64,000 nt of DNA. Origin: Bacillota bacterium (GTDB lineage: Bacteria > Bacillota > PH28-bin88). The notes beneath the pieces were generated by a model that was not told the origin of the DNA, made no database searches, and worked only from the letters and a program-made list of their open reading frames with translations. Shown here piece by piece: positions 3,432-31,784 of this stretch; position 1 is the stretch's first letter; each line of letters starts with the position of its first letter. The stretch spans positions 35,142-99,141 of the forward strand of contig JBFLXH010000007.1 of NCBI GenBank assembly GCA_040757295.1, in the 5' to 3' direction. The position numbers and the translations under genes were made by a program.

Positions 3432-4481
3432 TTGAAACTTTCCATCAAAGAAATGTGCAGTCTGGAGGCAGTGGTCAACCTTAAGATAGAATCTGACAGG
3501 CCTTTTTTTTCTGCCACTCATGAAGAAATAGCTAACGGTTCAACAACGGACATTTATTTTATTAGAACCTATGAGATTTTAGAAAACCTGCAGCTAAATG
3601 ATACTGAAGTTACTGCTGAGGTGTTCCCAAGGGGTTCTGGGGTAATGGCCGGTTTGCCTGAAGTGCTCAACTTATTAGCCAACAGAGGGTTGGAGATTTG
3701 GGCCCTTCCTGAGGGTGAAGATTTTTCGCCAAAAGAAGTTGTTTTGCGCATCAGAGGTCCTTATAATCGGTTTGGTTTGTTTGAGACTACTTTGCTTGGT
3801 ATTCTGGCCAGTTCCAGCGGGTGGGCCTCTGCCGCCAAAGCAGCAAAGCTGGCTGCAGGTGATAGGCCTGTCTACTGTTTTGGAGCTCGTCATGTGCATC
3901 CGGCGGTCGCCCCGGCGATGGAGCGGGCTGCCATTGTTGGTGGAGTTGATGGCGCAAGCTGTATTTTGGGTGCCAAGTTAGCAGGGAAGGAGCCTGTAGG
4001 TACGGTTCCTCATGCTGTTTTCCTAATCGCAGGTGACACCTTGAAAGTTGCCAAGACCTACCATGAAATCATGCCTCCTTCTGCCCGCAGGGTGATCCTA
4101 GTAGATACTTTTAAAGATGAGGCGGAGGAAGCTCTTAGGGTTGCTGAGGCTTTAGGACCAAATTTGCACGGGATAAGGCTGGATACCCCGAGTGAGAGAG
4201 GTGGAGTGACCCCTGATTTGGTAAGGGAAGTCCGCTGGAGGTTGAACTTAGCCGGGATGAGCCATGTTAAGATATTTGTATCCGGCGGCTTAACTCCTGA
4301 AAAGATTGTTCTGCTGAAACAGGCCGGGGCGGATGCCTTTGGTGTTGGAAGCTATATCTCAGGAGCAGCTCCTATTGATATGACTATGGATATTAAAGAG
4401 ATAAACGGCCAGCCTATTGCCAAGAGAGGCCGCCTTCCGGGGAGAACAGAGAGCCTGCGGCTGAAAGAGTATAAAGTTTAA
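3432..4481 (+). CDS. pncB: nicotinate phosphoribosyltransferase (NAPRTase family, short type)
   Basis: NAPRTase-like blocks (FGLFETTLLGIL, VDTF, GIRLDTP, SGGL) over ~350 aa. The start may instead be the ATG at 3453. Confidence 0.7.
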   Translation: MKLSIKEMCSLEAVVNLKIESDRPFFSATHEEIANGSTTDIYFIRTYEILENLQLNDTEVTAEVFPRGSGVMAGLPEVLNLLANRGLEIWALPEGEDFSPKEVVLRIRGPYNRFGLFETTLLGILASSSGWASAAKAAKLAAGDRPVYCFGARHVHPAVAPAMERAAIVGGVDGASCILGAKLAGKEPVGTVPHAVFLIAGDTLKVAKTYHEIMPPSARRVILVDTFKDEAEEALRVAEALGPNLHGIRLDTPSERGGVTPDLVREVRWRLNLAGMSHVKIFVSGGLTPEKIVLLKQAGADAFGVGSYISGAAPIDMTMDIKEINGQPIAKRGRLPGRTESLRLKEYKV

Positions 4482-4797: not shown

Positions 4798-5778
4798 TTG
4801 ATAGTCGGGAGAAAATGGCTTGCTGCTTTGGTTTTTATTCTTTTAGCTTTTGCTGCTGGTTGCTATGGCAAATCCATCCCAGAAGGACCTCAATCTTCGC
4901 CTGCTTCCCCGGAATATTCTTTGAGGATTTTGCGGGTGGGGCTTGTTGATAAATTATACTCTCTAGATCCTAGCGCTATTGCCACTTGGGATGAATTATT
5001 TGTGGCCACTCAAATTCACGAAGGATTGGTCCTACTAAGCTCTGACGGCTCTATCAAGCCTGGTTTAGCCTCGGCCTGGGAAGTTAATAAAGGCGGAACC
5101 CAGTATGTCTTTCATTTAAGTCCGGAAGCCCGTTTCTCCAACGGCCGCAAAATAACCAGCAGGGATGTCAAGCTCTCCTGGGAGCGCTCTGCTAGGATAC
5201 GCCCTGACACGGTATTACCTCTGCTAAAAAGCGTTAAAGGAATGCCGGCAGGTTTAAACGGTGTCGAAGCAAAGGGTGACAACTCCCTTGTAATTGAGCT
5301 GGAGACGCCGGATCCTTTTTTACTCCATTCTTTGAGCCATCCTCTCCTGGCAGTTGTTGACCTGCAGCCAACCAATACTTCCGTTGGCATTCCGGGATGT
5401 GGGCCTTTTCAGGTTGTGGAGTGGATCCCTGGCGAAATGTTAACTTTAGAAAAAAACCCAGAATACCATGGTCCGCAACAAATAATTGAAAGGATTGAAA
5501 TAAGGTGGGAAGGGACTGCACCGGAGAATGCCCTCGTCGATTTCAGCGCTGGGGATCTAGACCTGGTGGTGGAACTGCCAGCTATGTATTACAGGCATAT
5601 TGTGAAAGAACCTTTTCTCGAAAGTTCTTTGCGCCGTTACCGCCCCTCGGGGTCCAAGGGCAATTGGCCAGCTAACCCTGAACACCCATTTGGGTTGACC
5701 CTTGTGGCGGAAAAAATTGAGGGCTTGGATGCAGATGCCCTGGGCCGGCTGGATCTTCGAGGAATAGTATTTAAATAA
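4798..5778 (+). CDS. family-5 solute-binding lipoprotein (peptide/nickel ABC SBP), apparently truncated
   Basis: Lipobox LAFAAGC and SBP_bac_5-like N-terminal region. Only 326 aa (family norm ~520), with no cognate permease or ATPase adjacent. Confidence 0.5.
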   Translation: MIVGRKWLAALVFILLAFAAGCYGKSIPEGPQSSPASPEYSLRILRVGLVDKLYSLDPSAIATWDELFVATQIHEGLVLLSSDGSIKPGLASAWEVNKGGTQYVFHLSPEARFSNGRKITSRDVKLSWERSARIRPDTVLPLLKSVKGMPAGLNGVEAKGDNSLVIELETPDPFLLHSLSHPLLAVVDLQPTNTSVGIPGCGPFQVVEWIPGEMLTLEKNPEYHGPQQIIERIEIRWEGTAPENALVDFSAGDLDLVVELPAMYYRHIVKEPFLESSLRRYRPSGSKGNWPANPEHPFGLTLVAEKIEGLDADALGRLDLRGIVFK

Positions 5779-6792: not shown

Positions 6793-6830
6793 CGCGGATG
6801 CATCTAGTATCCGCGATTTTTTTGTTTTTT
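6793..6830 (+). terminator. rho-independent terminator
   Basis: CGCGGAT...ATCCGCG hairpin followed by ATTTTTTTTGTTTTTT. Confidence 0.75.
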
Positions 6831-6973: not shown

Positions 6974-8044
6974 ATGAAAGGCAAATTCTTTGACTACATG
7001 GAGACTTGGGAGTACGAGAATCTATGGCTTTGTCAGGACAAGGCAATAGGGCTAAAGGCAGTCGTTGCTATTCACGATACTACTCTGGGGCCGGCGACGG
7101 GGGGCTGCCGGATGTGGGTCTATGACCATGAGGAAGACGCTATTATTGATGCCTTACGTCTGGCTAGGGGAATGACCTATAAGTACGCCGCAGCTGGGGT
7201 AAATCTTGGCGGTGGAAAGACTGTTGTCATTGGCAACCCAAAAACAGATAAGTCTGAGGCATTATTCAGGGCTCTTGGAAGATTTATCGACAGATTAGGC
7301 GGGATTTACATAACTGGGCAGGATGTGGGTACAACCCTTGAGGATATGGAGCAAATCCGGATGGAAACTCCCCATGTGGTTACACTGCCTGAACACTTAG
7401 GCGGGGCCGGCCCTATTTCTCCTTACACTGCCTTGGGAACAGTTGAAGGGATGCGGGCGGGCTTAAAGCATATTTATGGGTCTGACAGCTTAGCTGGCGT
7501 TAGAGTTGCTGTTCAGGGCTTAGGTTCTGTTGGCTATCATGTAGTCCGCTTGTTGGTTGAAGGCGGCGCTTCAGTAGTGGTCACCGATATCGACCCTGAG
7601 AAGGTTGAGGAGGTAACCAAGGAATTCAATGTGCAATCTGTAGCTCCGGAAGCCATTTATGGAGTAGACTGTGATGTGTTTTCCCCTTGTGCTTTGGGGG
7701 CTGTGGTCAACGACAATACTTTGACCATGTTTAAATGTAAGATTATCGCAGGAGCCGCCAATAACCAGCTAAAAGAATATCGCCACGGGGATGCTCTTGA
7801 GGCAGCCGGGATTTTGTATTTGCCCGATTATATTCTTAATGCCGGCGGGACTATCTACGACACGGATCGCTTGATGTTTGGACTGCACGACAAGGCGCGG
7901 GCAGAAAGGAATGTGCGTCGGATTTACCAAACAACCGAAAAAGTCCTCGCTATTGCCAAGTTAGAAAAGTTGCCTACCTACCAAGCTGCTGACCTTTTTG
8001 CCGAAAGGAGAATTCAAAGCATCCGGAACGTCAAAAACATTTAG
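6974..8044 (+). CDS. leucine/branched-chain amino acid dehydrogenase (Glu/Leu/Phe/Val DH family)
   Basis: 356 aa, the short LeuDH/ValDH length. Has the catalytic-Lys region NLGGGKTVV and Rossmann GLGSVG. Confidence 0.85.
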   Translation: MKGKFFDYMETWEYENLWLCQDKAIGLKAVVAIHDTTLGPATGGCRMWVYDHEEDAIIDALRLARGMTYKYAAAGVNLGGGKTVVIGNPKTDKSEALFRALGRFIDRLGGIYITGQDVGTTLEDMEQIRMETPHVVTLPEHLGGAGPISPYTALGTVEGMRAGLKHIYGSDSLAGVRVAVQGLGSVGYHVVRLLVEGGASVVVTDIDPEKVEEVTKEFNVQSVAPEAIYGVDCDVFSPCALGAVVNDNTLTMFKCKIIAGAANNQLKEYRHGDALEAAGILYLPDYILNAGGTIYDTDRLMFGLHDKARAERNVRRIYQTTEKVLAIAKLEKLPTYQAADLFAERRIQSIRNVKNI

Positions 8045-8099
8045 TTTTTTTCAGGGCGGAAGGCGCCAAATTAAATAAATTTGTTGGGAGGTAGTTTGA

Positions 8100-9299
8100 A
8101 TGGCAAAGACCAAGGTATCTGTTGTCCGGACTGCCCAAGGGCCCAGCCGGGAAGAGATTCAACGGGCTGTTAGAGAAGCGGTTGCTCTGGCAGGCGGCCT
8201 GGAAGGTATTGTCAATCATGGTAACCTGGTAATTATTAAGCCCAATTTGGTTGCTGTTCCAAAAGAGCCCCATTCAGGAGCTGTTACTAACCCCGAAGTA
8301 TGCAGGGCGTTGGCCGACATGGTACGGGAAATGGGGGCTAGACCGGTTATTGCCGAGTCTGCTGCTGCAGGGGTGGATACGGAAAAGGTAATTGCCAGCG
8401 AAGGCTATGAAGAACTAAGAGCAGATGGCTATGAAGTAATCGACTTAAAAAAGACGCCTAGAGTTACCTTGCCAATACCTGGTGGGGTGGCCATTAGTGA
8501 GTTTGAAACCTTTGAATTGGTAAAAGAGGCTAACGTAATTATTAGTGTCCCGGTAATGAAAACCCATGATCAAACTCAGGCCTCCCTAAGCTTGAAAAAC
8601 CTGAAAGGTTTGGGGACGGATAATGATAAAAAGCATATGCATTCAGTTGGTATCTTTGAGGGAGTCCCGGACATTGTTCAACTTTTCAAGCCTGCTTTTA
8701 CTGTTGTTGATGGGATTTACTGCCAGGAAGGCTTAGGCCCGGTTTTTGGCATCCCGGTAGAAATGGATCTGATCCTTGCTGGCCGGGACCTGGTAGCGGT
8801 AGACACTGTCTGCAGCAAAATAATGGGGTATGAGCCGGGAGAGCTGTTGATCACTGTTAATGCTGCTAACCGGGGATTGGGCACCATGAATATGGAAGAA
8901 ATAGAGGTTGTAGGATGCAGTATCCCTGAGGTTCATCGCCGGTTTAAGCGATCTTCCGAAGACGTGATTGTTGATGTTAAGGATTTCCACCTCCTTTTTG
9001 AAGAGGGAACTTGCACCGGCTGCCACAACACGGTTTTAAGTTCTATTGTGGATATTAAGAATGACGGAAATCTGGATTTCCTTCCAGGCAAATGGGTGGT
9101 GGCGGGTCTCCTCAAGGAAGAGTCCTTGCCTGCAGGCGTTGCCAAGGAGGATCTGGTATTAGTTGGGAAGTGCACCAAGCCGTGGGCTGAACAGGGTATC
9201 CATGTTAAAGGCTGTCCCCCCAATAACATATGGGTTGTTCAGGCGATTTGCGGTGATAAGGCTAAACGCAGGTATGCCACTGAAGACATCAAGGATTAA
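8100..9299 (+). CDS. DUF362 domain-containing protein with C-terminal Cys cluster
   Basis: About 400 aa. DUF362-like region (LVIIKPNLV...) and a C-terminal Cys-rich segment (CTGCHNT, GKCTKPW, GCPPN). Tightly spaced between the ldh and OFOR genes. Confidence 0.65.
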   Translation: MAKTKVSVVRTAQGPSREEIQRAVREAVALAGGLEGIVNHGNLVIIKPNLVAVPKEPHSGAVTNPEVCRALADMVREMGARPVIAESAAAGVDTEKVIASEGYEELRADGYEVIDLKKTPRVTLPIPGGVAISEFETFELVKEANVIISVPVMKTHDQTQASLSLKNLKGLGTDNDKKHMHSVGIFEGVPDIVQLFKPAFTVVDGIYCQEGLGPVFGIPVEMDLILAGRDLVAVDTVCSKIMGYEPGELLITVNAANRGLGTMNMEEIEVVGCSIPEVHRRFKRSSEDVIVDVKDFHLLFEEGTCTGCHNTVLSSIVDIKNDGNLDFLPGKWVVAGLLKEESLPAGVAKEDLVLVGKCTKPWAEQGIHVKGCPPNNIWVVQAICGDKAKRRYATEDIKD

Positions 9300-9331
9300 A
9301 GGACTACTATTTCTGTTAGGAGGTCACGGAT

Positions 9332-9874
9332 TTGAAGGAGATCCGGATTCACGGCCGCGGTGGTCAGGGTTCGGTTGTACTTGCCGAGATGTTTGCTGTT
9401 GCGGCCTTCGCAGGAGGGAAATACAGTCAGGCCTTTCCTTACCTTGGCGGCGGTGGAGAGCGGCGCGGAGCCCCTGTTCAGGCTTTTGCCAGGATCAGCG
9501 ACGACCCTATCCGTTTAAGGAGTAGAATTAAAGACCCTGATTATGTGATTGTCCAAGATGTATCCTTGCTTGGGATTGTAGACGTTTTTAAGGGCCTTAA
9601 ATCGACAGGTATTGTTTTAATTAACAGCGAAAAAGAGGCTAAAGAGCTTGGAGAAAGGGTTATTACCGTCCCGGCGACTCATATTGCGCTGGAGAAACTC
9701 GGGGTGCCAATAACCAACACCGCTATTATGGGCGCCTTTGCCGCAGCTACAGGTGAATTGACTTTAGATGCAGTAGAGAAGGTTATTAGATCACGTTTTC
9801 CGGGAGTACTGGGGGAGCGTAACGCCGAAGCAGCTGCTGCTGCGTATTCCTTAATGAAGAGGTGTGGGGAATGA
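9332..9874 (+). CDS. 2-oxoacid:ferredoxin oxidoreductase gamma subunit
   Basis: POR/VOR gamma family (IHGRGGQGSVVLAEMFA); TTG start with RBS. Confidence 0.85.
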   Translation: MKEIRIHGRGGQGSVVLAEMFAVAAFAGGKYSQAFPYLGGGGERRGAPVQAFARISDDPIRLRSRIKDPDYVIVQDVSLLGIVDVFKGLKSTGIVLINSEKEAKELGERVITVPATHIALEKLGVPITNTAIMGAFAAATGELTLDAVEKVIRSRFPGVLGERNAEAAAAAYSLMKRCGE

Positions 9875-10128
9875 AACTTACTGTAGGTGCCGTTGTTCTA
9901 CCCGGAACATCCAAGAAAACAAAAACCGGATTATGGCGCGCAACACGGCCTTTGGTAAACCCAGAAGCATGTAATGGTTGCGGCGTTTGTGAATTGTTTT
10001 GTCCCGACAGTTCAATTGCGATAATAGATAAAACCTGTCAAATCAATTACGAATACTGCAAAGGTTGTGGAATTTGTGCTTATGAATGCAGCCGGAGAGC
10101 CATTACAATGCAGGAAGAGAGGAAATAG
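9871..10128 (+). CDS. 2-oxoacid:ferredoxin oxidoreductase delta (2x[4Fe-4S] ferredoxin) subunit
   Basis: CNGCGVCELFCP and CKGCGICAYEC motifs. ATG 9871 overlaps the gamma stop (ORF track starts at 9862). Confidence 0.85.
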   Translation: MKLTVGAVVLPGTSKKTKTGLWRATRPLVNPEACNGCGVCELFCPDSSIAIIDKTCQINYEYCKGCGICAYECSRRAITMQEERK

Positions 10129-10131
10129 GAG

Positions 10132-11316
10132 ATGCGTAAAACAGCTGTTTTGGAGGGCTCGGTAGGGGTTGCTGAAGCAGTAAAGGCGTGCCGCCCAAAG
10201 GTAATTTCCGCTTATCCTATCAGCCCTCAGACTCATGTGGTAGAGACTTTGGCTAAAATGGCCGCAGAGGGAGAAATTGATGCCGATTATATTCGAGTTG
10301 AATCAGAATTTTCAGCTGCATCGGTTGTTTATGGCGCTAGCGCTGCCGGTGTCAGGGCATATACCGCTTCTTCTTCCCAAGGTTTGCTGTTGATGACGGA
10401 AGTTATTTATAATATGGCGGGAACTAGGTTGCCTGTCGTTTTGACAGGAATTAACAGAACGGTTTCAGCCCCGATTACAATTCAACCTGACCACCAGGAT
10501 ACAATGGCTTTCCGGGATGCAGGCATCATCCAGTTGTATGTGGAAAGCAATCAGGAGGCATATGCGACCCATATTCAAGCCTTTAAAATTGCCGAAGACC
10601 ATCAAGTGCTTCTGCCGGTAATGGTATGTATGGACGGATGGATTTTGACTCATTGCTATGAGCCGATTGAACTATTAGGACAAGAAGAGGTTGACAGCTT
10701 TTTAGCGCCCTACCGGCCCCTTTACCCCCTTGATCCGCGAAAGCCTGTGACTTATGGTTCATTTGCAGATGAGGAGGTTATGGAATTTCGGTATATGGTT
10801 CATGCGGCAATGGAAAGGGCCAAGGCGAAGATTGTGGATGTGGCGGAGGAGTACCGCCAACGGTTCGGTTATTATTTCGGGGGATTGATTGAAGAGTATT
10901 ACTCCCAAGACGCCGAAATAGTCCTGGTAGCTATGGGTTCTATGGTGGCTACATTGAAAGACGCAGTTGACACATTGAGGAACGAAGGGATAAATATCGG
11001 GCTTTTGAAAATTCGGGCCTATCGCCCTTTTCCTGCCGAAGAGGTGAGACAGGCCTTAGCCAAAGCCAGAATTGTGGCGGTTTTAGATAAAAGCTTGTCT
11101 TGCGGTTATGCCGGGCCTTTGGCCTTGGATCTCAAGGCAGCCATGTATAATGCTGAAGCTCACCCGACCATTTTAAGTTTGATTGCTGGCCTAGGGGGCA
11201 GAGAAGTGGACCTGCAAACAGTGCGGGAAATTGTTAACCGGTGCCGGGCTGCAGCCAAGGCAGTGGACTGCGATTTCTTCCAACTGAGATCAGGACTTGT
11301 TGAATTCCCGGGCTGA
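10132..11316 (+). CDS. 2-oxoacid:ferredoxin oxidoreductase alpha subunit
   Basis: POR/VOR alpha family, 394 aa (AYPISPQT..., GINRTVSAP...). Confidence 0.9.
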   Translation: MRKTAVLEGSVGVAEAVKACRPKVISAYPISPQTHVVETLAKMAAEGEIDADYIRVESEFSAASVVYGASAAGVRAYTASSSQGLLLMTEVIYNMAGTRLPVVLTGINRTVSAPITIQPDHQDTMAFRDAGIIQLYVESNQEAYATHIQAFKIAEDHQVLLPVMVCMDGWILTHCYEPIELLGQEEVDSFLAPYRPLYPLDPRKPVTYGSFADEEVMEFRYMVHAAMERAKAKIVDVAEEYRQRFGYYFGGLIEEYYSQDAEIVLVAMGSMVATLKDAVDTLRNEGINIGLLKIRAYRPFPAEEVRQALAKARIVAVLDKSLSCGYAGPLALDLKAAMYNAEAHPTILSLIAGLGGREVDLQTVREIVNRCRAAAKAVDCDFFQLRSGLVEFPG

Positions 11317-11334
11317 ATTGGGGGAGGAAATAAT

Positions 11335-12225
11335 ATGGAACAACTTTTGGCGCCGGGGCATCGGGCCTGTCCAGGTTGCGGTGTGGCGGTAGCAGTAAGG
11401 CAGATATTGAGCGCAACAGGCCCTAATGTGATTGTTGTATCACCTACAGGCTGCCTGGAGACTTTTACTTCTCCTTATGGTTATTCAGCATGGGAGGTGC
11501 CTTGGATTCATCCCCTTTTTGAAAATGCTGCAGCCGTGGCTTCAGGCGTTGAGGCAGCTCTGAAATACACCGGCCTAAAAGACACACCAGTAGTGGTAAT
11601 GGGCGGTGACGGGGGTACTTTTGATATTGGTTTCGGCGGTCTTTCCGGAATGTTTGAGCGGGGGCATAACGTAACCTATATCTGCTATGACAATGAGGCG
11701 TACATGAATACCGGCATCCAGCGCAGCAGCGCTACCCCTCTAGGGGCTGCCACCACCACCACCCCATCGGGGAAAATATCATTGGGGAAAATGGAGCGGA
11801 AGAAAGATATGCCTGCGATTGCTATTGCCCATGGTCTTGACTATGTGGCCACCGCAGCTATCTGTTATCCCAAAGACCTAATGCACAAGGTAAAAAAGGC
11901 TATTTCCATTGAGGGGCCCAAATATCTTCAGGTGCATACCCCATGCTGCGTTGGCTGGGGTTTTGAACCAGCCCTTACTGTCGAAATGGCACGGTTGGCG
12001 GTGCAAACAGGATTGATGCCTATTTTTGAAGCTGTAAACGGCCAAATATCTGCGGTACGAAAAATTGCTCAGGTCCGGCCTGTTAGGGAATATATCGAAA
12101 AGCAGGCCAGGTTTAAACACCTGTTTAATTCAGGACCAGAGGGTTTGGCAGTCTTAGAACGTATCCAAGAACTGGCCGATAAAAATATTGCTGCTTGGGG
12201 AATGGCGTCAAAGGAGGTAAGCTGA
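11335..12225 (+). CDS. 2-oxoacid:ferredoxin oxidoreductase beta (TPP-binding) subunit
   Basis: ACPGCG Fe-S/TPP region and the GGDGG TPP-binding motif (VVMGGDGGTFDIGF). Confidence 0.9.
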   Translation: MEQLLAPGHRACPGCGVAVAVRQILSATGPNVIVVSPTGCLETFTSPYGYSAWEVPWIHPLFENAAAVASGVEAALKYTGLKDTPVVVMGGDGGTFDIGFGGLSGMFERGHNVTYICYDNEAYMNTGIQRSSATPLGAATTTTPSGKISLGKMERKKDMPAIAIAHGLDYVATAAICYPKDLMHKVKKAISIEGPKYLQVHTPCCVGWGFEPALTVEMARLAVQTGLMPIFEAVNGQISAVRKIAQVRPVREYIEKQARFKHLFNSGPEGLAVLERIQELADKNIAAWGMASKEVS

Positions 12226-13665
12226 ATGAAAACTGCTGCGGAATATTTGGAATCTCTACGTGGGCTGAGACCAAGAGTATATGCCTTTGGGGAGGAAATT
12301 GCTTGTGTAGTAGACCATCCCTTGACAAAGCCCCATGTGGCAGCAGCTGCATTAACATATGAGCTGGCTCATCAACCCGATGCTGAGGACTTGGTAACCG
12401 CCCTTTCCCATCGAAGCGGGCGGGTTATTAACCGTTTTACCCATATCCATCAAAGTACTCAAGACTTAGTAAAAAAAGTAAAAATGCTTAGGATGATTGC
12501 CCAAAAAACCGGTAGCTGTTTTCAGAGATGTGTTGGATTTGACGCGATAAATGCTATATACAGTGTTACCTACGAAATGGACCAGGAACTGGGCACCAGC
12601 TATCACGAGAGGTTTTGCGCTTACCTGGACAGATTGCAGGAAGAAGACCTGATGGTAGCTGGTTCTATGACAGATGCCAAGGGCGACCGCAGTTTAAAGC
12701 CAAGCCAACAGCCAGATCAAGACGTCTATGTCAGGGTGGTGGCAAAAAATGAGAAAGGGATTGTAATTAGAGGAGGGAAAGCTCACCAAACAGGCATTGT
12801 CAACTCTCATGAAATGTTGATCATGCCTACAACTGCTCTAACCGCGGAGGATGCCGACTTTGCCCTGTGCTGTGCGGTCCCGGTTGATGCACCAGGAGTT
12901 ATCCATATTTTTGGCAGGCAAACCAACGACACCCGAAGGCTAGAAGGCGGCAGCATTGACCAGGGCAATGCCCGGTATGCTATCGTTGGCGGCGAGGCTT
13001 TGACGGTCTTGGAGGATGTTTTTGTGCCATGGGAAAAGGTGTTCATGTGCGGCGAGCACCAGTACGCCGGAATGCTGGTTGAGCGTTTTGCCTGTTATCA
13101 CCGGCAAAACTATGGGGGCTGTAAAACGGGGGTTAGTGATATTATTATTGGCGGCGCCTGCGCCTTAGCAGAATATAACGGGGTGGCCAAGGCTTCTCAC
13201 ATCCGGGATAAGATAGCTGAAATGGTTCACCTGGCAGAAACCATGTATTGCGGCTCCATAGCCTGTTCAGCTGAGGGAAGCCCAACCAAGTCAGGGGCTT
13301 ATCTGGTAGAGCCACTATTAGCTAACACGGTGAAACAAAATGTTACCCGGTTTATTTACGAAATTAGCCGTCTAGCCCATGACATTGCGGGTGGATTCCT
13401 TGCTACCCTGCCATCGGAGAAGGATATTGAGCACCAGGAAATTGGACAGTATGTGCTAAAATACTTTGCCGGGACGGCAGGAGTCCCGGTTGAGCACAGG
13501 ATTAGGGTGGCCAGGCTGCTTGAAAACATGACAGGGGGAACCGCCTTGTTAGAGTCCATGCACGGCGCCGGCTCACCCCAAGCACAGCGGGTAATGATCT
13601 TAAGGCAGGCAAACTTGGCCCATAAAAAGAAGCTGGCTGAGCGTTTAGCGGGCGTCTGCTGCTGA
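12226..13665 (+). CDS. abfD: 4-hydroxybutyryl-CoA dehydratase / vinylacetyl-CoA delta-isomerase family (AbfD-like)
   Basis: 479 aa, collinear with AbfD. Hallmark blocks: QKTGSCFQRCVGFDA (cluster Cys pair), HQTGIVNSHE, ESMHGAGSPQAQRVMI. Confidence 0.8.
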   Translation: MKTAAEYLESLRGLRPRVYAFGEEIACVVDHPLTKPHVAAAALTYELAHQPDAEDLVTALSHRSGRVINRFTHIHQSTQDLVKKVKMLRMIAQKTGSCFQRCVGFDAINAIYSVTYEMDQELGTSYHERFCAYLDRLQEEDLMVAGSMTDAKGDRSLKPSQQPDQDVYVRVVAKNEKGIVIRGGKAHQTGIVNSHEMLIMPTTALTAEDADFALCCAVPVDAPGVIHIFGRQTNDTRRLEGGSIDQGNARYAIVGGEALTVLEDVFVPWEKVFMCGEHQYAGMLVERFACYHRQNYGGCKTGVSDIIIGGACALAEYNGVAKASHIRDKIAEMVHLAETMYCGSIACSAEGSPTKSGAYLVEPLLANTVKQNVTRFIYEISRLAHDIAGGFLATLPSEKDIEHQEIGQYVLKYFAGTAGVPVEHRIRVARLLENMTGGTALLESMHGAGSPQAQRVMILRQANLAHKKKLAERLAGVCC

Positions 13666-13666
13666 G

Positions 13667-14011
13667 ATGGTTGCTGAGATGGAGCTTAGCGAGAAGAAGC
13701 CCTTGGTGCTGGTCAAGTTTTGTGGCGGGTGCAATCCGCTAATTGACCGCCAGGCAGTTTTTAATGAATTAAAGGAGCTCCTTTTCAGTACTCACCAGGT
13801 GATTGCTGCCCTTATGCCTGCGGCTGACTGGTTTTTAATTATCAGCGGTTGTAGGGTAAACTGTGCTGGTGTTCCAAAGGAATGGGCAAAGCCGGAGAAA
13901 ACAATCCGAGTTGCGGGAACAGCTGTAAATGGTTGGCTTGTCAATGAGAATGAATTAGCCGATGCCATTGCCCGAATTATTACTGGCTTGCATACTATTA
14001 ATTACGGCTAA
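13667..14011 (+). CDS. small CGGC-motif protein (function unknown)
   Basis: KFCGGCNP motif plus a second Cys pair. Overlaps the abfD stop by 1 nt (operonic). Start may be the ATG at 13676. Confidence 0.5.
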   Translation: MVAEMELSEKKPLVLVKFCGGCNPLIDRQAVFNELKELLFSTHQVIAALMPAADWFLIISGCRVNCAGVPKEWAKPEKTIRVAGTAVNGWLVNENELADAIARIITGLHTINYG

Positions 14012-14115: not shown

Positions 14116-14200
14116 GCGGAAGTGGCGGAACCGGCAGACGCGTACGTTTGAGGGGCGTATGGGAAATCCCGTGGGGGTTCAAGTCCCCCCTTCCGCACCA
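14116..14200 (+). tRNA. tRNA-Leu (anticodon GAG), type II with long variable arm, encoded CCA
   Basis: Hand-folded. Acceptor GCGGAAG/CTTCCGC; anticodon stem TACGT/GCGTA with loop TTGAGGG; variable arm GGGAAATCCC; T-arm GGGGG-TTCAAGT-CCCCC; 3' ACCA. Confidence 0.75.
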
Positions 14201-14256
14201 ACAAAACAAATTAAGGCGTGCATTAAGTCGATGTGCGCTTTTTGTTTTTGGTTTAC

Positions 14257-14879: not shown

Positions 14880-15749
14880 TTAGTAGGAACGACCAAAGTT
14901 TTGTCCGGCGAAATTGGGGCTGGTGTACTGGCCCCCGAACTGACCGCCAATGTTTTGTCCTCCAAAGGTAGAGAGTCCGCCAAACTGGGCGCCAGCCTGT
15001 TGGGTCAGGCCACTAATCTGCTGCAAGTCCCTGTTTACTTGGTTTGCCATTTGCTGTAGCTGCTGCAGCTGTTGGCTAACTTGACGTTCAGCTTGGGCTA
15101 GCTGCTGGAGCTGTTGAGCCGTGCTGAATTCAGTTTGTTGCAAGCGCTGTAGGGTATTGGCATTGTTTTGCTCTACTTGGGCCATTTGGGAGACCATAGC
15201 CTGTATGCTGTTCAGCTCATCCCTGAAACGCTGGATCTGCTGCTGCAGTTGGAAGGCAGAGGTAATCGGGGCTTGGTATGACTGCTGATAATTAGGGGTA
15301 AACCCTATATTTGTTTGTCCATAGGCTCCGGTTGTAAAGGGAGAGAAACCGCCGAAACCCCCATAAGCGCCTGTGTAACCCAAGGTTGGGCTGATTTGTC
15401 CCGCTGTGTATGCGCTGCTCGCCCACTTATCGCCAACTCCCAAGGTTCTGTAATTGTCGCCGACACCAAGGGTAGTTTGGCTATATGGCTGCTGGGTATA
15501 TGCGCCTGCCCAATTGCTAATAGGCTGGTGTGCGAAGTTTTGACCGTACTGGCTTGCGGCGCTGGCCCATTTGTCCCCGACCCCCAAAGTCCTGGTATTA
15601 TCTCCAACGCCTAGAGTGGTCTGGGCATAGGGTTGGCTAGAAAATCCGCCTGTCGAAAACCCTTGTGACCCGTAGCCGAACGAACCCAACTGAGAACCCT
15701 GCATCCCTGTACCAAGATTTCCTGCTTGATAGCCGAATTGATTGAACAC
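14880..15749 (-). CDS. Gln/Gly/Tyr/Thr-rich low-complexity protein with internal ~45-aa tandem repeat and Q-rich coiled-coil (candidate spore coat/structural protein)
   Basis: 289 aa with GTG start. TTLGVGDNxRTLGVGDKWAS is duplicated. Central QQLQQLAQAERQVSQQLQQLQQ. G/Q/Y-rich termini, no signal peptide. Confidence 0.6.
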   Translation of the reverse strand: MFNQFGYQAGNLGTGMQGSQLGSFGYGSQGFSTGGFSSQPYAQTTLGVGDNTRTLGVGDKWASAASQYGQNFAHQPISNWAGAYTQQPYSQTTLGVGDNYRTLGVGDKWASSAYTAGQISPTLGYTGAYGGFGGFSPFTTGAYGQTNIGFTPNYQQSYQAPITSAFQLQQQIQRFRDELNSIQAMVSQMAQVEQNNANTLQRLQQTEFSTAQQLQQLAQAERQVSQQLQQLQQMANQVNRDLQQISGLTQQAGAQFGGLSTFGGQNIGGQFGGQYTSPNFAGQNFGRSY

Positions 15750-16090: not shown

Positions 16091-16294
16091 ATGTTTGGCT
16101 TAATTCCCAGCATTGGTCCAACTGAACTCATATTGATATTGGCCTTGGCTTTAATTATCTTTGGTCCCGGTAAATTGCCCGATGTAGGGAAATCCTTGGG
16201 CAAGACAATTAGAGAATTTCGCAGCGCAACTAAAGATGAAGCCCCCTCTGCCGCTCAGCTAAAGAATGAAGGGGAGAAGCAGGCAGATTCGTAA
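16091..16294 (+). CDS. tatA: twin-arginine translocase TatA/E-family subunit
   Basis: N-terminal TM plus amphipathic helix (IILALALIIFGPGKLPDVGKSLGKTIREF); 67 aa. Confidence 0.85.
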   Translation: MFGLIPSIGPTELILILALALIIFGPGKLPDVGKSLGKTIREFRSATKDEAPSAAQLKNEGEKQADS

Positions 16295-16323
16295 ATTATT
16301 AGTGGGACAAGAGAGGTGCCAAC

Positions 16324-16518
16324 ATGTTTAATATTGGGCCGTGGGAACTAATCCTGATATTAATTGTTGCGTTGGTTGTTGTAGGTCCGAAAAAGCTGCC
16401 GGAGATGGGCAGGGCTGTTGGGAATGGATTAAAGGAATTCCGAAAAGCTACTTCTGATATCAGAAACCAACTAGATGTCACCAAAGCCGAGCCTCCTGCG
16501 GAAGAAAAGAAAACTTAA
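16324..16518 (+). CDS. tatA: second TatA/B-family subunit
   Basis: ILILIVALVVVGPKKLPEMGRAVGNGLKEFRK; 64 aa. Confidence 0.85.
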   Translation: MFNIGPWELILILIVALVVVGPKKLPEMGRAVGNGLKEFRKATSDIRNQLDVTKAEPPAEEKKT

Positions 16519-16853
16519 GGGAATATCAAATATTTTAATATTCGGTCTCCGAGCTAATACCGCCTAACGGTTTTTCCTATGGGGTTTAAGCCTGAGCTCT
16601 TAGCTCACGGGGTACAATTACCGGAAACGGGTGTGCCTCCATTATTGGGAAGGAGATGCATTAGGTCGTTTATTATTTCGGCCCTGCTAATTCGTTCCTT
16701 AGCAGGGCCATTATTTATAAGCTGGGATGCAAAAATAAGGTTGTTTATCCTTTTATTAGGTTAGCTGCTTATTAGTACTGGGAGCGCCTTACTGCCTCAG
16801 CAAGTATATCCAAGTTATTAACAAAGCATCGTAGAAGCTTTGGGGGTGTTTTC

Positions 16854-17609
16854 GTGGAAGAAAAGTCCATGACTATTGTGGAACACTTAGAAGAATTGAG
16901 GAAGGTTGTCGTGGTTTCAATTATTGCTGTTTTGATTTCAACCATGGCAATTTTTTTCCTATTTCGCGATCTCCTATTTATGGCGGCCATCAAGCCATTA
17001 GCTGATTATGGCATACAGGTTGTTTTCATTGGGCCGACAGAAGCTTTGTTTTCCAAACTAAAAATAAGTATCTTCGCTGGCCTTTTTGTCTCTTTGCCGG
17101 TTATTTTATGGAAGATATGGAGCTTTGTGGTCCCGGCTCTGCATACCAATGAGCGGCGGTATGTTTACTTGTTAGTTCCTACATCCTTGCTGCTATTTCT
17201 GCTGGGAGTTTCTTTTGCTTACTTTACAGTTCTACAAGTCGCCACCAGATTCTTACTCGTAATTGCTGCTGAAGGATTAGAACCCATGATTACTGTAAGT
17301 AAATACATTTCTTTCTTAGTCTCCTTTTTACTCCCATTCGGGGCCGTTTTTGAGCTGCCATTAATAGTCTTTTTTCTGACCCATATTGGTATAATAAACC
17401 ACAGTTTTTTGGCAAGGAATCGTAGATATGCAATACTAATTACCTTTGTTTTAGCCGCTTTGTTAACACCCCCGGATGTAGTGTCCCAAACCCTCTTGGC
17501 TGGGCCAATGGTTATTTTATATGAAATCAGTATTTGGGTTTCCCGTGTGGCAAAACCTAAACCTAAGTTGGAAAATTCCGTTGCAAAAGAAACTTCCTCA
17601 AGGGATTAA
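16854..17609 (+). CDS. tatC: twin-arginine translocase subunit TatC
   Basis: Six-TM TatC family (EHLEELRKVVVVSIIAVLIS..., LTPPDVVSQ). ORF track start is GTG; the ATG at 16869 is also possible. Confidence 0.9.
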   Translation: MEEKSMTIVEHLEELRKVVVVSIIAVLISTMAIFFLFRDLLFMAAIKPLADYGIQVVFIGPTEALFSKLKISIFAGLFVSLPVILWKIWSFVVPALHTNERRYVYLLVPTSLLLFLLGVSFAYFTVLQVATRFLLVIAAEGLEPMITVSKYISFLVSFLLPFGAVFELPLIVFFLTHIGIINHSFLARNRRYAILITFVLAALLTPPDVVSQTLLAGPMVILYEISIWVSRVAKPKPKLENSVAKETSSRD

Positions 17610-31539: not shown

Positions 31540-31615
31540 GGGCGATTAGCTCAGCTGGGAGAGCACCTGCCTTACAAGCAGGGGGTCGGCAGTTCAAACC
31601 TGTCATCGCCCACCA
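31540..31615 (+). tRNA. tRNA-Val (TAC)
   Basis: Hand-folded cloverleaf; anticodon loop CTTACAA; CCA encoded. Confidence 0.85.
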
Positions 31616-31624
31616 AAAAAGTAC

Positions 31625-31701
31625 GGAGCTGTAGTGTAGCGGTCTAACATGCCGGCCTGTCACGCCGGAGATCGCGGGTTCGATTCCCGTCAGCTCCGCC
31701 A
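31625..31701 (+). tRNA. tRNA-Asp (GTC)
   Basis: Acceptor GGAGCTG/CAGCTCC; anticodon loop CTGTCAC; CCA encoded. Confidence 0.85.
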
Positions 31702-31705
31702 TTCT

Positions 31706-31781
<76 letters not shown>

Positions 31782-31784
31782 GTT

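What the first reader, a model, noticed from the sequence alone, without database searches (positions are those of the whole stretch)
6974..14011. Unusual operon: LeuDH - DUF362 - 2-oxoacid:ferredoxin oxidoreductase (gamma/delta/alpha/beta) - AbfD-like dehydratase - CGGC protein
Eight co-directional, tightly packed (often overlapping) genes sit between two terminators. They link an amino-acid dehydrogenase of the short LeuDH/ValDH type, a four-subunit ferredoxin-dependent 2-oxoacid oxidoreductase, and a clear 4-hydroxybutyryl-CoA dehydratase/vinylacetyl-CoA isomerase homolog (FAD/[4Fe-4S] radical enzyme; CFQRC pair conserved). The classical AbfD context (4-hydroxybutyrate dehydrogenase, CoA transferase) is absent. 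Instead AbfD follows an amino acid -> 2-oxoacid -> acyl-CoA route, with an uncharacterised DUF362 Fe-S protein and a small CGGC protein. This suggests either a non-canonical substrate for the AbfD homolog (e.g. acting on a branched or hydroxy acyl-CoA derived from the OFOR product) or a glutamate/2-oxoglutarate-to-crotonyl-CoA variant.
Basis: partly seen in the sequence, partly recalled or inferred. Interest (0 to 1): 0.55.

Follow-up and report, generated by a model that had tools for sequence, protein, structure and literature searches.

The report
Uncharacterised amino-acid-to-crotonyl-CoA operon
Eight real, tightly packed genes form a conserved but unstudied operon that probably turns a proline- or ornithine-derived amino acid into crotonyl-CoA, using a protein with the lactate-racemase (nickel-pincer enzyme) fold whose function nobody has tested.

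Summary
The labels need correcting.

- **Dehydrogenase:** it is not a normal leucine dehydrogenase. All four hydrophobic specificity residues are replaced (L40T, A113G, V291T, V294D). The 120 closest homologues share G113, T291 and D294.
- **Oxidoreductase:** it is pyruvate-type (POR-like), not 2-oxoglutarate-type.
- **AbfD:** it is an orthodox 4-hydroxybutyryl-CoA dehydratase, nested among AbfDs from 4-hydroxybutyrate clusters.
- **Small protein:** it belongs to family AF_0334 and follows AbfD in 45 loci. It is not a Pfam CGGC-domain protein.

The same gene set recurs across Bacillota, Synergistota and Deltaproteobacteria. An aminotransferase (in some loci with a glutamate dehydrogenase) often replaces the dehydrogenase. 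Proline- and ornithine-related genes, thiolase, Hbd and crotonase often lie nearby.

Best reading (confidence about 0.4): a C5 amino acid gives 5-hydroxy-2-oxopentanoate, then 4-hydroxybutyryl-CoA, then crotonyl-CoA. DUF362 would supply the hydroxylated intermediate. I found no published characterisation.

The parts
6793..6825 (+). Terminator-like hairpin plus T-run that ends the upstream MctB-like gene. It marks the 5' boundary of the operon.
   Evidence: 9-bp stem with 6 GC pairs, then ATTTTTTTGT; sequence read.
6974..8044 (+). Short-type Glu/Leu/Phe/Val-family amino-acid dehydrogenase (356 aa) with a non-LeuDH, polar substrate pocket (T, G, T, D at LeuDH positions 40, 113, 291, 294).
   Evidence: - Pfam ELFV_dehydrog_N and ELFV_dehydrog.
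- LeuDH structure 6acf matches at E 3e-128, with K68, K80 and D115 conserved.
- G113, T291, [YF]293 and D294 are shared by all 120 closest homologues.
- The gene is absent from the sister MAG operon.
8100..9299 (+). DUF362 protein (399 aa): a LarA-fold domain plus a C-terminal four-cysteine Fe-S domain of the NuoB / hydrogenase small-subunit type. Candidate nickel-pincer enzyme.
   Evidence: - Pfam PF04015, E 3e-48.
- AlphaFold model with pLDDT 88.
- Invariant H156, K166, H181, C305, C308, C358 and C372.
- larB/C/E genes lie beside homologues.
9332..9874 (+). 2-oxoacid:ferredoxin oxidoreductase gamma subunit (180 aa).
   Evidence: Pfam POR. NCBIfam POR gamma model scores 241 bits against a cutoff of 225.
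9862..10128 (+). OFOR delta subunit, a 2x[4Fe-4S] ferredoxin-like protein. The likely start is the ATG at 9871 (85 aa), which overlaps the gamma stop codon by 4 nt.
   Evidence: Pfam Fer4 families. PorD/KorD subfamily model scores 89.8 bits against a cutoff of 60. Gene call on the identical contig.
10132..11316 (+). OFOR alpha subunit (394 aa), POR-like.
   Evidence: - Pfam POR_N and PFOR_II.
- PorA_Arch model scores 492 bits, below its cutoff of 550.
- The best solved structure is the four-subunit PFOR alpha chain 9bt4_B, E 2e-119.
11335..12225 (+). OFOR beta subunit (296 aa), the thiamine-diphosphate-binding subunit.
   Evidence: Pfam TPP_enzyme_C. PorB model scores 384 bits, below its cutoff of 405.
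12226..13665 (+). 4-hydroxybutyryl-CoA dehydratase / vinylacetyl-CoA isomerase (AbfD, 479 aa).
   Evidence: - Structure 1u8v matches at E 8e-175 and 6vjr at E 4.5e-167, against at best E 5e-38 for HpaB monooxygenases.
- C99, C103, H292 and C299 are conserved.
- It is 56.5% identical to 1U8V and nests among AbfDs of 4-hydroxybutyrate-type clusters.
13667..14011 (+). Small four-cysteine protein of family AF_0334 (110-114 aa). It is a constant downstream partner of AbfD.
   Evidence: - Precomputed Pfam PF27236 hit.
- Motif K[FY]CGxCNP ... GCxxxC.
- tblastn finds relatives of it in 45 loci fetched through AbfD or DUF362; where AbfD is also in the locus, the relative lies just downstream.
- No hit to the Pfam CGGC domain.
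14116..14200 (+). tRNA-Leu(GAG) gene directly downstream, followed by a terminator-like hairpin at 14213-14241. Together they form the 3' boundary. The tRNA is probably not part of the pathway.

Best explanation
The operon is a catabolic module that feeds a C5 alpha-amino acid into the crotonyl-CoA / butyrate beta-oxidation hub of a strictly anaerobic, Syntrophomonadaceae-like Bacillota bacterium.

Proposed steps:
1. The LarA-fold DUF362 enzyme makes or processes an omega-hydroxylated C5 intermediate from a common imino or amino acid. This is inferred. The enzyme probably carries a nickel-pincer nucleotide and an Fe-S cluster. The most likely reaction is L-proline (or ornithine, or P5C/glutamate semialdehyde) -> 5-hydroxy-L-norvaline by hydride borrowing.
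2. The atypical ELFV dehydrogenase oxidatively deaminates that amino acid to 5-hydroxy-2-oxopentanoate. The enzyme class is shown; the substrate is inferred. In many relatives a class I/II aminotransferase replaces it, in some with a glutamate dehydrogenase alongside.
3. The POR-like four-subunit OFOR converts the 2-oxoacid to 4-hydroxybutyryl-CoA, CO2 and reduced ferredoxin. The enzyme class is shown; the substrate is inferred.
4. AbfD dehydrates 4-hydroxybutyryl-CoA to crotonyl-CoA. The enzyme family is shown. The small AF_0334 four-cysteine protein is an AbfD accessory or redox partner (inferred).
5. Crotonyl-CoA enters housekeeping beta-oxidation or butyrate formation. These genes are clustered with the module in relatives and must lie elsewhere in this genome.
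For: - **Recurring OFOR-AbfD coupling.** An OFOR lies immediately upstream of AbfD in 21 of 80 AbfD-anchored genome loci. These include Sporomusa aerivorans, Eubacterium callanderi, Megasphaera hexanoica, Clostridium aromativorans and gut MAGs. Two different OFOR clades (about 60% and 42% identity) are involved.
- **DUF362-anchored sample.** Among 35 metagenome loci of at least 8 kb, the D294-type ELFV lies in the same locus, almost always directly next to DUF362, in 22. An OFOR is present in 10 and AbfD in 9.
- **Synergistota locus L088.** It carries PpnP-aminotransferase-LarB-LarC-LarE divergent from OFORgdab-Hbd-AbfD-crotonase-DUF362-thiolase-GntR. L039 carries DUF362, ELFV, OFOR, AbfD, the small protein, thiolase, Hbd, a CoA-transferase, Bcd, EtfBA and LarB/E/C.
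- **AbfD is orthodox**, so its substrate should be 4-hydroxybutyryl-CoA. Ligands are conserved. It nests with AbfDs of clusters carrying a CoA ligase, an MFS transporter and thiolase-Hbd-crotonase. The OFOR substrate must therefore be the C5 acid 5-hydroxy-2-oxopentanoate. This is a chemical inference.
- **The ELFV pocket is polar.** LeuDH positions 40, 113, 291 and 294 carry T, G, T and D; G, T and D are invariant in 120 homologues. These are the known specificity positions (PMC2723916).
- **Proline and ornithine theme around the module.**
  - ProC lies in-operon in L136 and L169, and nearby in L040, L048, L053 and L058-L061.
  - OCD/mu-crystallin genes occur in five loci.
  - Proline-dehydrogenase-like DAO plus Pyr_redox_2 genes also occur.
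- **Other DUF362 contexts.** The same subfamily is paired with pyruvate aldolases that cleave 4-hydroxy-2-oxoacids plus an aminotransferase (L089, L110, L145, L146). This would fit hydroxyproline if the same chemistry applies.
Against: - No enzyme activity was tested, and 5-hydroxynorvaline is not an established bacterial intermediate. I found no paper on it in this context.
- The window and its 64 kb contain no larBCE, ProC, OCD or aminotransferase.
- The sister MAG operon lacks the ELFV gene altogether.
- LarA's R75, D72 and second catalytic His (H108) have no conserved counterpart. This was judged by eye on an unaligned printout. The H/K motif match is not significant by sequence alone: 680 of 5000 shuffles reach its score, and hhalign gives probability 0.25.
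- The four-cysteine Fe-S domain hints at external electron transfer rather than pure hydride borrowing.
- Asp294 would suit a cationic side chain such as ornithine at least as well as a hydroxyl group.
- The OFOR scores closest to genuine pyruvate enzymes.
- An NPAD-dependent ornithine cyclodeaminase has been reported (cited in PMC13524815; that paper was not available to me). The lar genes in some clusters might serve that enzyme rather than DUF362.
Confidence: 0.4

Rival explanations
1. Pyruvate hub. The OFOR is simply a pyruvate:ferredoxin oxidoreductase that makes acetyl-CoA. AbfD independently converts 4-hydroxybutyryl-CoA from another source. The genes cluster only because both products feed the acetoacetyl-CoA / crotonyl-CoA / butyrate node. 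ELFV and DUF362 form a separate two-gene amino-acid module.
For: - The OFOR is closest to PorCDAB models, and its gamma subunit passes the POR cutoff.
- The best solved structure is a four-subunit PFOR.
- Thiolase, Hbd and crotonase lie adjacent in relatives.
- The ELFV-DUF362 pair occurs without OFOR or AbfD in most metagenome loci.
Against: - The alpha, beta and delta subunits fall below the POR equivalog cutoffs.
- OFOR-beta abuts AbfD in almost all OFOR-linked loci, across two OFOR clades and several phyla.
- The window holds no source of 4-hydroxybutyryl-CoA: no CoA ligase, CoA-transferase or 4-hydroxybutyrate dehydrogenase.
Confidence: 0.15
2. Glutamate route. Glutamate -> 2-oxoglutarate -> succinyl-CoA -> succinate semialdehyde -> 4-hydroxybutyrate -> 4-hydroxybutyryl-CoA -> crotonyl-CoA. 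DUF362 or unlinked enzymes would perform the reductions.
For: - GDH-type ELFV genes lie in gut-type loci L041, L047 and L064.
- An aldehyde:ferredoxin oxidoreductase, an SDR or an Fe-ADH lies near some clusters.
- The DUF362 Fe-S domain could accept ferredoxin electrons.
Against: - The window ELFV has Thr and Asp where GluDH has K89 and S380 (PMC2723916).
- The alpha subunit scores at most about 134 bits on the generic or 2-oxoglutarate-type alpha models, against 492 for PorA. The other three subunits also score far lower on OorC/OorD/KorB-type models than on Por models.
- No succinyl-CoA reductase, 4-hydroxybutyrate dehydrogenase or CoA-transferase was found in the window.
- In the gut loci the GDH sits next to an aminotransferase, which fits 2-oxoglutarate recycling.
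Confidence: 0.1
3. Ornithine alpha-deamination route. The ELFV (Asp294 binding the delta-ammonium group) oxidises ornithine to 5-amino-2-oxopentanoate / pyrroline-2-carboxylate. The OFOR makes 4-aminobutyryl-CoA. The AbfD homologue eliminates ammonia instead of water.
For: - An invariant Asp sits in the side-chain pocket.
- OCD, ProC and other ornithine/proline genes lie around the module.
Against: - AbfD nests among AbfDs of 4-hydroxybutyrate clusters and has an unchanged active site.
- 5-amino-2-oxopentanoate cyclises, and 4-aminobutyryl-CoA lactamises to 2-pyrrolidone. This is established chemistry and was not tested here.
- The route leaves DUF362 without a role.
Confidence: 0.08
4. Ordinary branched-chain amino-acid oxidation (LeuDH plus VOR giving isovaleryl- or isobutyryl-CoA), with AbfD and the other genes as unrelated passengers.
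For: - The best solved relatives of the dehydrogenase are leucine dehydrogenases.
- Liv-type ABC transporters often follow the ELFV-DUF362 pair.
Against: - All four hydrophobic LeuDH specificity residues are replaced.
- The VOR models score lower than the POR models.
- The conserved OFOR-AbfD adjacency and the C4 beta-oxidation genes next to it argue against it.
Confidence: 0.06
5. Reverse, biosynthetic direction. Crotonyl-CoA -> 4-hydroxybutyryl-CoA -> reductive carboxylation by the OFOR -> 5-hydroxy-2-oxopentanoate -> amination -> 5-hydroxynorvaline -> (DUF362, ProC) -> proline or ornithine.
For: - All the steps are in principle reversible.
- Rumen and syntrophic anaerobes do make amino acids by reductive carboxylation of acyl-CoAs (general knowledge).
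- ProC works in the proline-forming direction.
Against: - Uptake transporters (Liv-type ABC, TRAP, SNF) and GntR/IclR catabolic-type regulators are clustered with the module.
- Thiolase, Hbd and crotonase in the same operons fit degradation.
- Glutamate-based proline synthesis is cheaper.
Confidence: 0.06

Closest known systems
4-aminobutyrate / succinate fermentation to butyrate (Clostridium aminobutyricum AbfH-AbfT-AbfD; C. kluyveri Cat1-SucD-4HbD-Cat2-AbfD)
   Same: Same key enzyme. AbfD has its [4Fe-4S] ligands and is 56.5% identical to the solved C. aminobutyricum enzyme. The fate of crotonyl-CoA is the same: thiolase, Hbd, crotonase and Bcd/Etf lie next to the module in relatives.
   Different: In the known pathways 4-hydroxybutyryl-CoA comes from free 4-hydroxybutyrate via a CoA-transferase, after a 4-hydroxybutyrate dehydrogenase. 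Neither gene is in the window. Here a four-subunit OFOR abuts AbfD, implying direct formation of the thioester from a C5 2-oxoacid.
Oxidative amino-acid fermentation modules (amino-acid dehydrogenase or aminotransferase plus 2-oxoacid:ferredoxin oxidoreductase, POR/VOR/IOR/KOR type)
   Same: The first two chemical steps and the enzyme families match. The gamma-delta-alpha-beta OFOR architecture matches too.
   Different: The dehydrogenase pocket is polar, not hydrophobic. The acyl-CoA is not used for substrate-level phosphorylation; it is passed to a radical dehydratase. A LarA-fold protein is an integral member.
LarA superfamily of nickel-pincer nucleotide 2-hydroxyacid racemases and epimerases
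   Same: - Pfam places DUF362 and DUF2088 in the same clan (PMC11770544).
- There is a His-x9-Lys...His motif in the same register as LarA H174, K184 and H200.
- larB/C/E are neighbours in relatives.
   Different: - There is no detectable sequence homology.
- No counterparts of R75 or H108 are visible.
- It carries an extra C-terminal four-cysteine Fe-S domain.
- The genomic partners are amino-acid catabolic enzymes, not hydroxyacid genes.
- Cofactor use is unproven.
Ornithine / proline metabolism of anaerobes (ornithine cyclodeaminase, P5C reductase, Stickland ornithine and proline pathways)
   Same: OCD/mu-crystallin, ProC and proline-dehydrogenase-like genes flank the DUF362-ELFV module in relatives.
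   Different: The known routes end in 5-aminovalerate (reductive branch) or in alanine plus acetyl-CoA via 2,4-diaminopentanoate (oxidative branch). None of them uses an OFOR plus AbfD.
Archaeal dicarboxylate/4-hydroxybutyrate CO2-fixation cycle
   Same: Both contain a pyruvate-type OFOR and AbfD with the crotonyl-CoA to acetyl-CoA steps (general knowledge; compare 6vjr).
   Different: The cycle needs PEP carboxylase, succinyl-CoA reductase and a 4-hydroxybutyrate-CoA ligase. None of these is here. This cluster carries amino-acid enzymes and uptake systems instead.

Membership tests
4-hydroxybutyryl-CoA dehydratase (AbfD) | [4Fe-4S] ligands Cys99, Cys103, His292 and Cys299 (1U8V numbering). 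| tested here: met
   The alignment to 1u8v shows CFQRC and H-RQ-YGG-C conserved.
4-hydroxybutyryl-CoA dehydratase (AbfD) | Full-length similarity to solved AbfDs far above that to HpaB-type flavin monooxygenases. | tested here: met
   585 and 560 bits to 1u8v and 6vjr, against at most 135 bits to HpaB and chlorophenol monooxygenases.
4-hydroxybutyryl-CoA dehydratase (AbfD) | Clusters with AbfDs that sit in 4-hydroxybutyrate-type contexts rather than forming a separate clade. | tested here: met
   In an NJ tree of 100 AbfDs the OFOR/DUF362-linked ones are polyphyletic. The window groups with L002, L003, L006, L007 and L009. The L002 context is sigma54 activator, AbfD, small protein, CoA ligase, SDR, MFS, thiolase, Hbd, crotonase.
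4-hydroxybutyryl-CoA dehydratase (AbfD) | Dehydration of 4-hydroxybutyryl-CoA to crotonyl-CoA. | not testable with these tools
   This needs an anaerobic enzyme assay.
Leucine/valine dehydrogenase | Catalytic Lys68, Lys80 and Asp115, and a short (about 360 aa) ELFV architecture. | tested here: met
   Alignment to 6acf and Pfam.
Leucine/valine dehydrogenase | Hydrophobic side-chain pocket Leu40, Ala113, Val291 and Val294. | tested here: not met
   The window has T, G, T and D at these positions. G, T and D are invariant in the 120 closest homologues. The role of these positions is described in PMC2723916.
Glutamate dehydrogenase | Lys89 and Ser380 (C. symbiosum numbering) binding the gamma-carboxylate. 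| tested here: not met
   The equivalent positions (LeuDH 40 and 294) are Thr and Asp (PMC2723916). GDH NCBIfam models score at most 63 bits.
Pyruvate:ferredoxin oxidoreductase, four-subunit PorCDAB type | Gamma, delta, alpha and beta subunits with POR, 2x[4Fe-4S], POR_N/PFOR_II and TPP-binding domains. | tested here: met
Pyruvate:ferredoxin oxidoreductase, four-subunit PorCDAB type | Scores above the curated equivalog cutoffs for all subunits. | tested here: inconclusive
   Gamma scores 241 against a cutoff of 225 (passes). Delta scores 90 against 120, alpha 492 against 550 and beta 384 against 405 (all fail narrowly). The best solved structure is PFOR alpha 9bt4_B.
2-oxoglutarate:ferredoxin oxidoreductase (KOR/OGOR) | Similarity to Kor/Oor subunit models. 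| tested here: not met
   Generic and 2-oxoglutarate-type models score at most about 134 bits for alpha, against cutoffs of 411-579. They score well below the Por-type models for the other three subunits as well.
LarA superfamily (nickel-pincer nucleotide enzymes) | LarA alpha/beta fold. | tested here: met
   [not shown]
LarA superfamily (nickel-pincer nucleotide enzymes) | Cofactor-tethering Lys184 and Ni-binding His200, with catalytic His174. | tested here: inconclusive
   - Invariant H156, K166 and H181 have LarA-like spacing.
- The best ungapped placement of the motif on LarA puts H156 on H174 and K166 on K184.
- The score is reached by 680 of 5000 shuffles.
- hhalign is not significant.
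- No residue-level structural superposition was available.
LarA superfamily (nickel-pincer nucleotide enzymes) | Second catalytic His108 and phosphate-binding Arg75. | tested here: inconclusive
   H156 and H181 are the only invariant histidines in the DUF362 alignment. By eye, on a side-by-side printout of the two segments, the corresponding positions carry Ala or Asn. This would argue against a racemase, but the correspondence rests on inspection only.
LarA superfamily (nickel-pincer nucleotide enzymes) | larB, larC and larE present to make the cofactor. | tested here: inconclusive
   They are absent from the 64 kb window, and the rest of the genome was not available. They are adjacent to DUF362 homologues in L039, L041, L058, L060, L061 and L088.
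Pfam CGGC domain (PF08821) | Match to the family profile. | tested here: not met
   No hit even at E 10. The protein belongs to PF27236 AF_0334 according to precomputed hits.

The most novel reading that the evidence does not exclude
This DUF362 subfamily would be a new class of nickel-pincer enzyme: a LarA fold fused to a [4Fe-4S] domain. It would open the proline ring, or remove the omega-amino group of ornithine, by hydride borrowing to give 5-hydroxynorvaline.

Together with a dedicated 5-hydroxy-2-oxopentanoate:ferredoxin oxidoreductase and AbfD, this would define a previously unknown and widespread anaerobic route from proline or ornithine to crotonyl-CoA, butyrate or acetate. It would need no high-potential electron acceptor.

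The cluster-linked MetRS copies would then be self-protection against a methionine-sized toxic intermediate.
Probability: 0.18. Interest if true: 0.88.

Novelty: new variant of a known kind. Interest (0 to 1): 0.68.

Why it matters
- **A new source of 4-hydroxybutyryl-CoA.** If the reading is right, the substrate of a well-known radical enzyme has a second natural source. That source is a ferredoxin-dependent oxidative decarboxylation, not a CoA transfer.
- **A missing step for anaerobes.** Strict anaerobes, including abundant gut Oscillospiraceae, acetogens, Synergistota and syntrophs, would have a way to oxidise proline-family amino acids to butyrate or acetate. Textbook pathways lack this.
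- **A lead on DUF362.** The work gives the first concrete functional lead for this large unknown family. The evidence is a LarA fold, lar-gene neighbours, an Fe-S domain and constant pairing with an atypical amino-acid dehydrogenase. It may also explain why many genomes carry nickel-pincer cofactor genes without LarA.
- **Annotation.** The 'leucine dehydrogenase' label on thousands of D294-type proteins is probably wrong.

Tried and rejected
- **Riboswitch or T-box in the 220-nt leader:** Rfam finds nothing there at gathering thresholds.
- **Sequence search of DUF362 and the small protein against PDB:** no hits, either as single sequences or as a profile.
- **hhalign of the DUF362 profile against the LarA sequence:** not significant.
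- **Motif-level H/K match:** not significant on its own.
- **AlphaFold model of the small protein:** pLDDT 45 from only three homologues, so unusable and not searched.
- **Shared substrate-pocket signature in OFOR alpha:** the two AbfD-linked OFOR clades carry different motifs near the YPI(S/T)P and NR...D(H/Q) segments. Nothing could be concluded.
- **Literature searches:** I searched DUF362, PF04015, AbfD with OFOR, 5-hydroxynorvaline, and nickel-pincer ornithine cyclodeaminase. No paper characterises this cluster. The Desguin 2025 NPAD-OCD paper is not held, so I could not learn which protein family that enzyme belongs to.
- **Methionine as substrate:** prompted by MetRS copies next to four clusters. 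Rejected because the thioether chemistry does not lead to a C4 AbfD substrate.
- **tRNA downstream:** it is tRNA-Leu, not tRNA-Met, and was judged incidental.
- **afdb50 fold library:** unavailable.

Full report
**1.

The window carries eight co-directional ORFs between 6974 and 14011. The same eight genes are called on an identical public contig. Pfam and NCBIfam give these identities:
- a short Glu/Leu/Phe/Val-family dehydrogenase (ELFV);
- a DUF362 protein;
- the gamma, delta, alpha and beta subunits of a 2-oxoacid:ferredoxin oxidoreductase (OFOR);
- an HpaB-fold protein;
- a small Cys-rich protein.

The HpaB-fold protein is an AbfD. It matches the solved 4-hydroxybutyryl-CoA dehydratases 1u8v (E 8e-175) and 6vjr (E 4.5e-167), against E 5e-38 at best for true hydroxylases. 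It keeps the CFQRC and H-x6-C cluster ligands.

Gene spacing is 55, 32, -4, 3, 18, 0 and 1 nt. A terminator-like hairpin precedes the operon at 6793-6815. Downstream come a tRNA-Leu(GAG) gene and only then a terminator-like hairpin. No riboswitch sits in the leader.

The proteins occur in NCBI as a 'Bacillota bacterium' MAG. A Syntrophomonadaceae MAG carries the same locus (DUF362 92% and AbfD 96% identical), but without the dehydrogenase gene.

**2. The dehydrogenase is not a leucine dehydrogenase in specificity**

Against Geobacillus LeuDH (6acf), the catalytic K68, K80 and D115 are kept. The four pocket residues that define LeuDH specificity are all changed: L40T, A113G, V291T and V294D. 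The role of positions 40, 113, 291 and 294 is described in PMC2723916.

All 120 closest database homologues share G113, T291, Y/F293 and D294. Position 40 is T, V, A or G. This is therefore a large, distinct subfamily, currently named 'leucine dehydrogenase' by annotation transfer. It also lacks the K89 and S380 equivalents of glutamate dehydrogenase.

**3. DUF362 has the LarA fold and keeps nickel-pincer company**

- No solved structure matches by sequence.
- The C-terminal 90 residues or so resemble the Fe-S domain of NuoB and hydrogenase small subunits. They carry four invariant cysteines.
- Invariant H156-x9-K166-x14-H181 mirrors LarA's catalytic H174, cofactor-tethering K184 and Ni-binding H200 (PMC7583248).
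- The best ungapped placement of this segment on LarA falls in exactly that register. The match is not significant by sequence alone.
- By eye, LarA's R75 and H108 have no conserved counterpart.
- Pfam places DUF362 and LarA's DUF2088 in one clan (PMC11770544).
- In relatives, larB/larE/larC lie in the same locus as DUF362:
  - Sporomusa aerivorans L039 has all three; L041 has LarB.
  - Three gut MAGs have LarC directly after DUF362, one of them with a ZIP metal transporter.
  - Synergistota L088 has LarB, LarC and LarE.
  - The annotated loci L088 and L039 carry no LarA gene.

Nickel-pincer enzymes outside the LarA family were reported only recently: an aldo-keto-reductase-fold hydride transferase and an ornithine cyclodeaminase (PMC13524815). 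I found nothing on DUF362.

**4. The gene association is conserved, which is the main argument for a pathway**

*AbfD-anchored sample.* Among 80 species-representative genomes, 21 have a four-subunit OFOR directly upstream of AbfD. The OFORs belong to two clades:
- about 60% identical to the window, sometimes with gamma-beta-delta-alpha gene order;
- about 42% identical, in acetogens, Megasphaera and gut Oscillospiraceae.

In the second group a class I/II aminotransferase follows AbfD in most loci. A glutamate-dehydrogenase-type ELFV sits with it in L041, L047 and L064. DUF362 (47-54% identical) is nearby, usually in the array P5C reductase - SNF transporter - PpnP-like cupin - DUF362 - LarC. 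An aminotransferase, with a GDH in some loci, is the functional equivalent of the window's single dehydrogenase.

*DUF362-anchored sample.* Among 80 metagenome loci, 35 are at least 8 kb long. Of these:
- 22 have the D294-type ELFV in the same locus, almost always directly next to DUF362;
- 10 have an OFOR;
- 9 have AbfD;
- 10 have the PpnP-like gene.

Liv-type ABC or TRAP uptake systems and GntR regulators are common.

*The most complete example* is Synergistota locus L088. It carries PpnP-aminotransferase-LarB-LarC-LarE divergent from OFORgdab-Hbd-AbfD-crotonase-DUF362-thiolase-GntR.

The small protein's relatives turn up in 45 of the fetched loci. Where AbfD is present they follow it, including loci with no OFOR. 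They share K[FY]CGxCNP...GCxxxC. I therefore treat the small protein as an AbfD accessory, not a pathway-specific enzyme.

**5. AbfD is orthodox, so the unusual substrate belongs to the OFOR**

In a tree of 100 AbfDs, the OFOR- or DUF362-linked ones are scattered. The window's enzyme groups with those of Desulfofundulus, Pelotomaculum and related loci. Their context is sigma-54 activator - AbfD - small protein - CoA ligase - SDR - MFS transporter - thiolase - Hbd - crotonase, which is a plain hydroxy-acid utilisation cluster.

If AbfD takes 4-hydroxybutyryl-CoA and the adjacent OFOR supplies it, the OFOR substrate must be 5-hydroxy-2-oxopentanoate. The amino acid handled by the ELFV or aminotransferase would then be 5-hydroxynorvaline. 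This step is inference from chemistry. The polar ELFV pocket is compatible with it, but an Asp would also suit ornithine.

The OFOR itself is POR-like:
- gamma passes the POR cutoff;
- alpha (492 against 550), beta (384 against 405) and delta (90 against 120) fall just short;
- the best solved structure is a four-subunit PFOR.

It is far from 2-oxoglutarate enzymes.

**6. Where the C5 skeleton comes from**

Genes around the module in relatives point to the proline and ornithine family:
- P5C reductase, inside the operon in L136 and L169 and nearby in at least seven gut or acetogen loci;
- OCD/mu-crystallin genes in five loci;
- DAO plus Pyr_redox_2/Fe-S proteins resembling archaeal proline dehydrogenase;
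- an Fe-alcohol dehydrogenase;
- a prolidase-like M24 peptidase next to an ELFV in an aerobe.

Other members of the same DUF362 subfamily sit with an aminotransferase and pyruvate aldolases that cleave 4-hydroxy-2-oxoacids. One would expect this if the same chemistry were applied to hydroxyproline.

My preferred reading is that DUF362 converts proline, or ornithine or P5C, into the omega-hydroxy amino acid by nickel-pincer hydride borrowing. That would let strict anaerobes bypass the high-potential proline dehydrogenase step. This is the least secure part of the model. The Fe-S domain could instead mean ferredoxin-linked reduction of glutamate semialdehyde. Alternatively the enzyme could act at the 2-oxoacid level.

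**7. Rivals**

- *Pure pyruvate hub.* The OFOR would be POR, and AbfD would be fed from elsewhere. This fits the HMM scores. It does not explain the conserved abutment of OFOR-beta and AbfD, or the lack of any 4-hydroxybutyrate-activating gene in the window.
- *Glutamate / 2-oxoglutarate route.* The ELFV pocket, the OFOR scores and the missing succinyl-CoA reductase contradict it.
- *Ornithine to 4-aminobutyryl-CoA.* AbfD's orthodoxy and intermediate instability argue against it.
- *Branched-chain oxidation.* The pocket contradicts it.
- *Biosynthetic direction.* The uptake systems, catabolic-type regulators and beta-oxidation genes make it unlikely.

**8. Verdict**

The finding is real and more interesting than a curiosity of gene order. 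It is one compact version of a widespread module that, as far as I could find, has not been characterised. The unusual specificity most likely lies in the dehydrogenase, the OFOR and DUF362.

I classify it as a new variant of known kinds of system (amino-acid oxidation plus the AbfD route). There is a realistic chance that DUF362 is a new nickel-pincer enzyme type.

Noticed in passing
window 3432-4481: A 349-aa QRPTase-family (nicotinate-nucleotide / nicotinate phosphoribosyltransferase-like) gene lies just upstream of the operon (one gene away from DUF362 in the sister MAG L170, three in the window). Nicotinic-acid nucleotides are the precursors of the nickel-pincer cofactor, so the neighbourhood may not be accidental.
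   Followed up: partly
window 4798-5778 and 6974-8044, compared with L170 7545-10001: Relative to the closest MAG (QRPTase-MctB-DUF362-OFOR-AbfD-AF_0334), the window has two extra genes. One is an SBP_bac_5 solute-binding protein between QRPTase and MctB. The other is the ELFV dehydrogenase in front of DUF362. This is a recent gain here or a loss in the sister.
   Followed up: partly
L036, L039 (3919-5541), L041, L064: A full-length methionyl-tRNA synthetase gene (766 bits against a cutoff of 598 in L039) sits directly next to the cluster in four unrelated lineages, at four different positions. It could be a resistant copy protecting against a methionine-sized intermediate, or it could be coincidence.
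   Followed up: partly
L047 14340-17493; L078 547-5611: In Eubacterium callanderi and Megasphaera hexanoica the cluster also carries a GlmL-like mutase reactivase. With it are one or two proteins of about 585 aa that have a C-terminal B12-binding domain and an N-terminal part with no family match. This may be an undescribed B12 mutase feeding the pathway.
   Followed up: no
L039 953-1330 and many loci (e.g. L088, L092, L116, L121): A small PpnP-family cupin (annotated pyrimidine/purine nucleoside phosphorylase) lies immediately upstream of DUF362 in many loci (10 of the 35 long metagenome loci). It is absent from the window operon. It may be a subunit or a cofactor-handling partner.
   Followed up: partly
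L039 1351-2499; L053, L057, L061: A conserved protein of about 385 aa next to DUF362 has no Pfam, NCBIfam or PDB match.
   Followed up: partly
L089 10001-13282; L110, L145, L146: The same DUF362 subfamily also occurs as DUF362 - HpcH/HpaI aldolase - aminotransferase, and as KHG/KDPG aldolase - D-2-hydroxyacid dehydrogenase - DUF362. This suggests a parallel pathway for a 4-hydroxylated substrate such as hydroxyproline.
   Followed up: partly
window 14880-15749 (- strand): A 289-aa ORF encodes a highly repetitive Gln/Gly/Tyr/Ser-rich protein (repeats of TLGVGD...WAS... and QQLQQ). It is a low-complexity protein of unknown role.
   Followed up: no
window 16091-17609: A molybdenum-cofactor riboswitch (16535-16671, 63 bits) lies between two TatA-like small ORFs (16091-16294, 16324-16518) and a TatC-like ORF (16854-17609). 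The Tat assignments were made by eye from the translations.
   Followed up: no
window 31540-32241 and 53892-54061: A cluster of six tRNA genes (Val, Asp, Phe, Gly, Cys, Leu), and a c-di-AMP riboswitch (76 bits) upstream of the ORF at 54158-55375.
   Followed up: no
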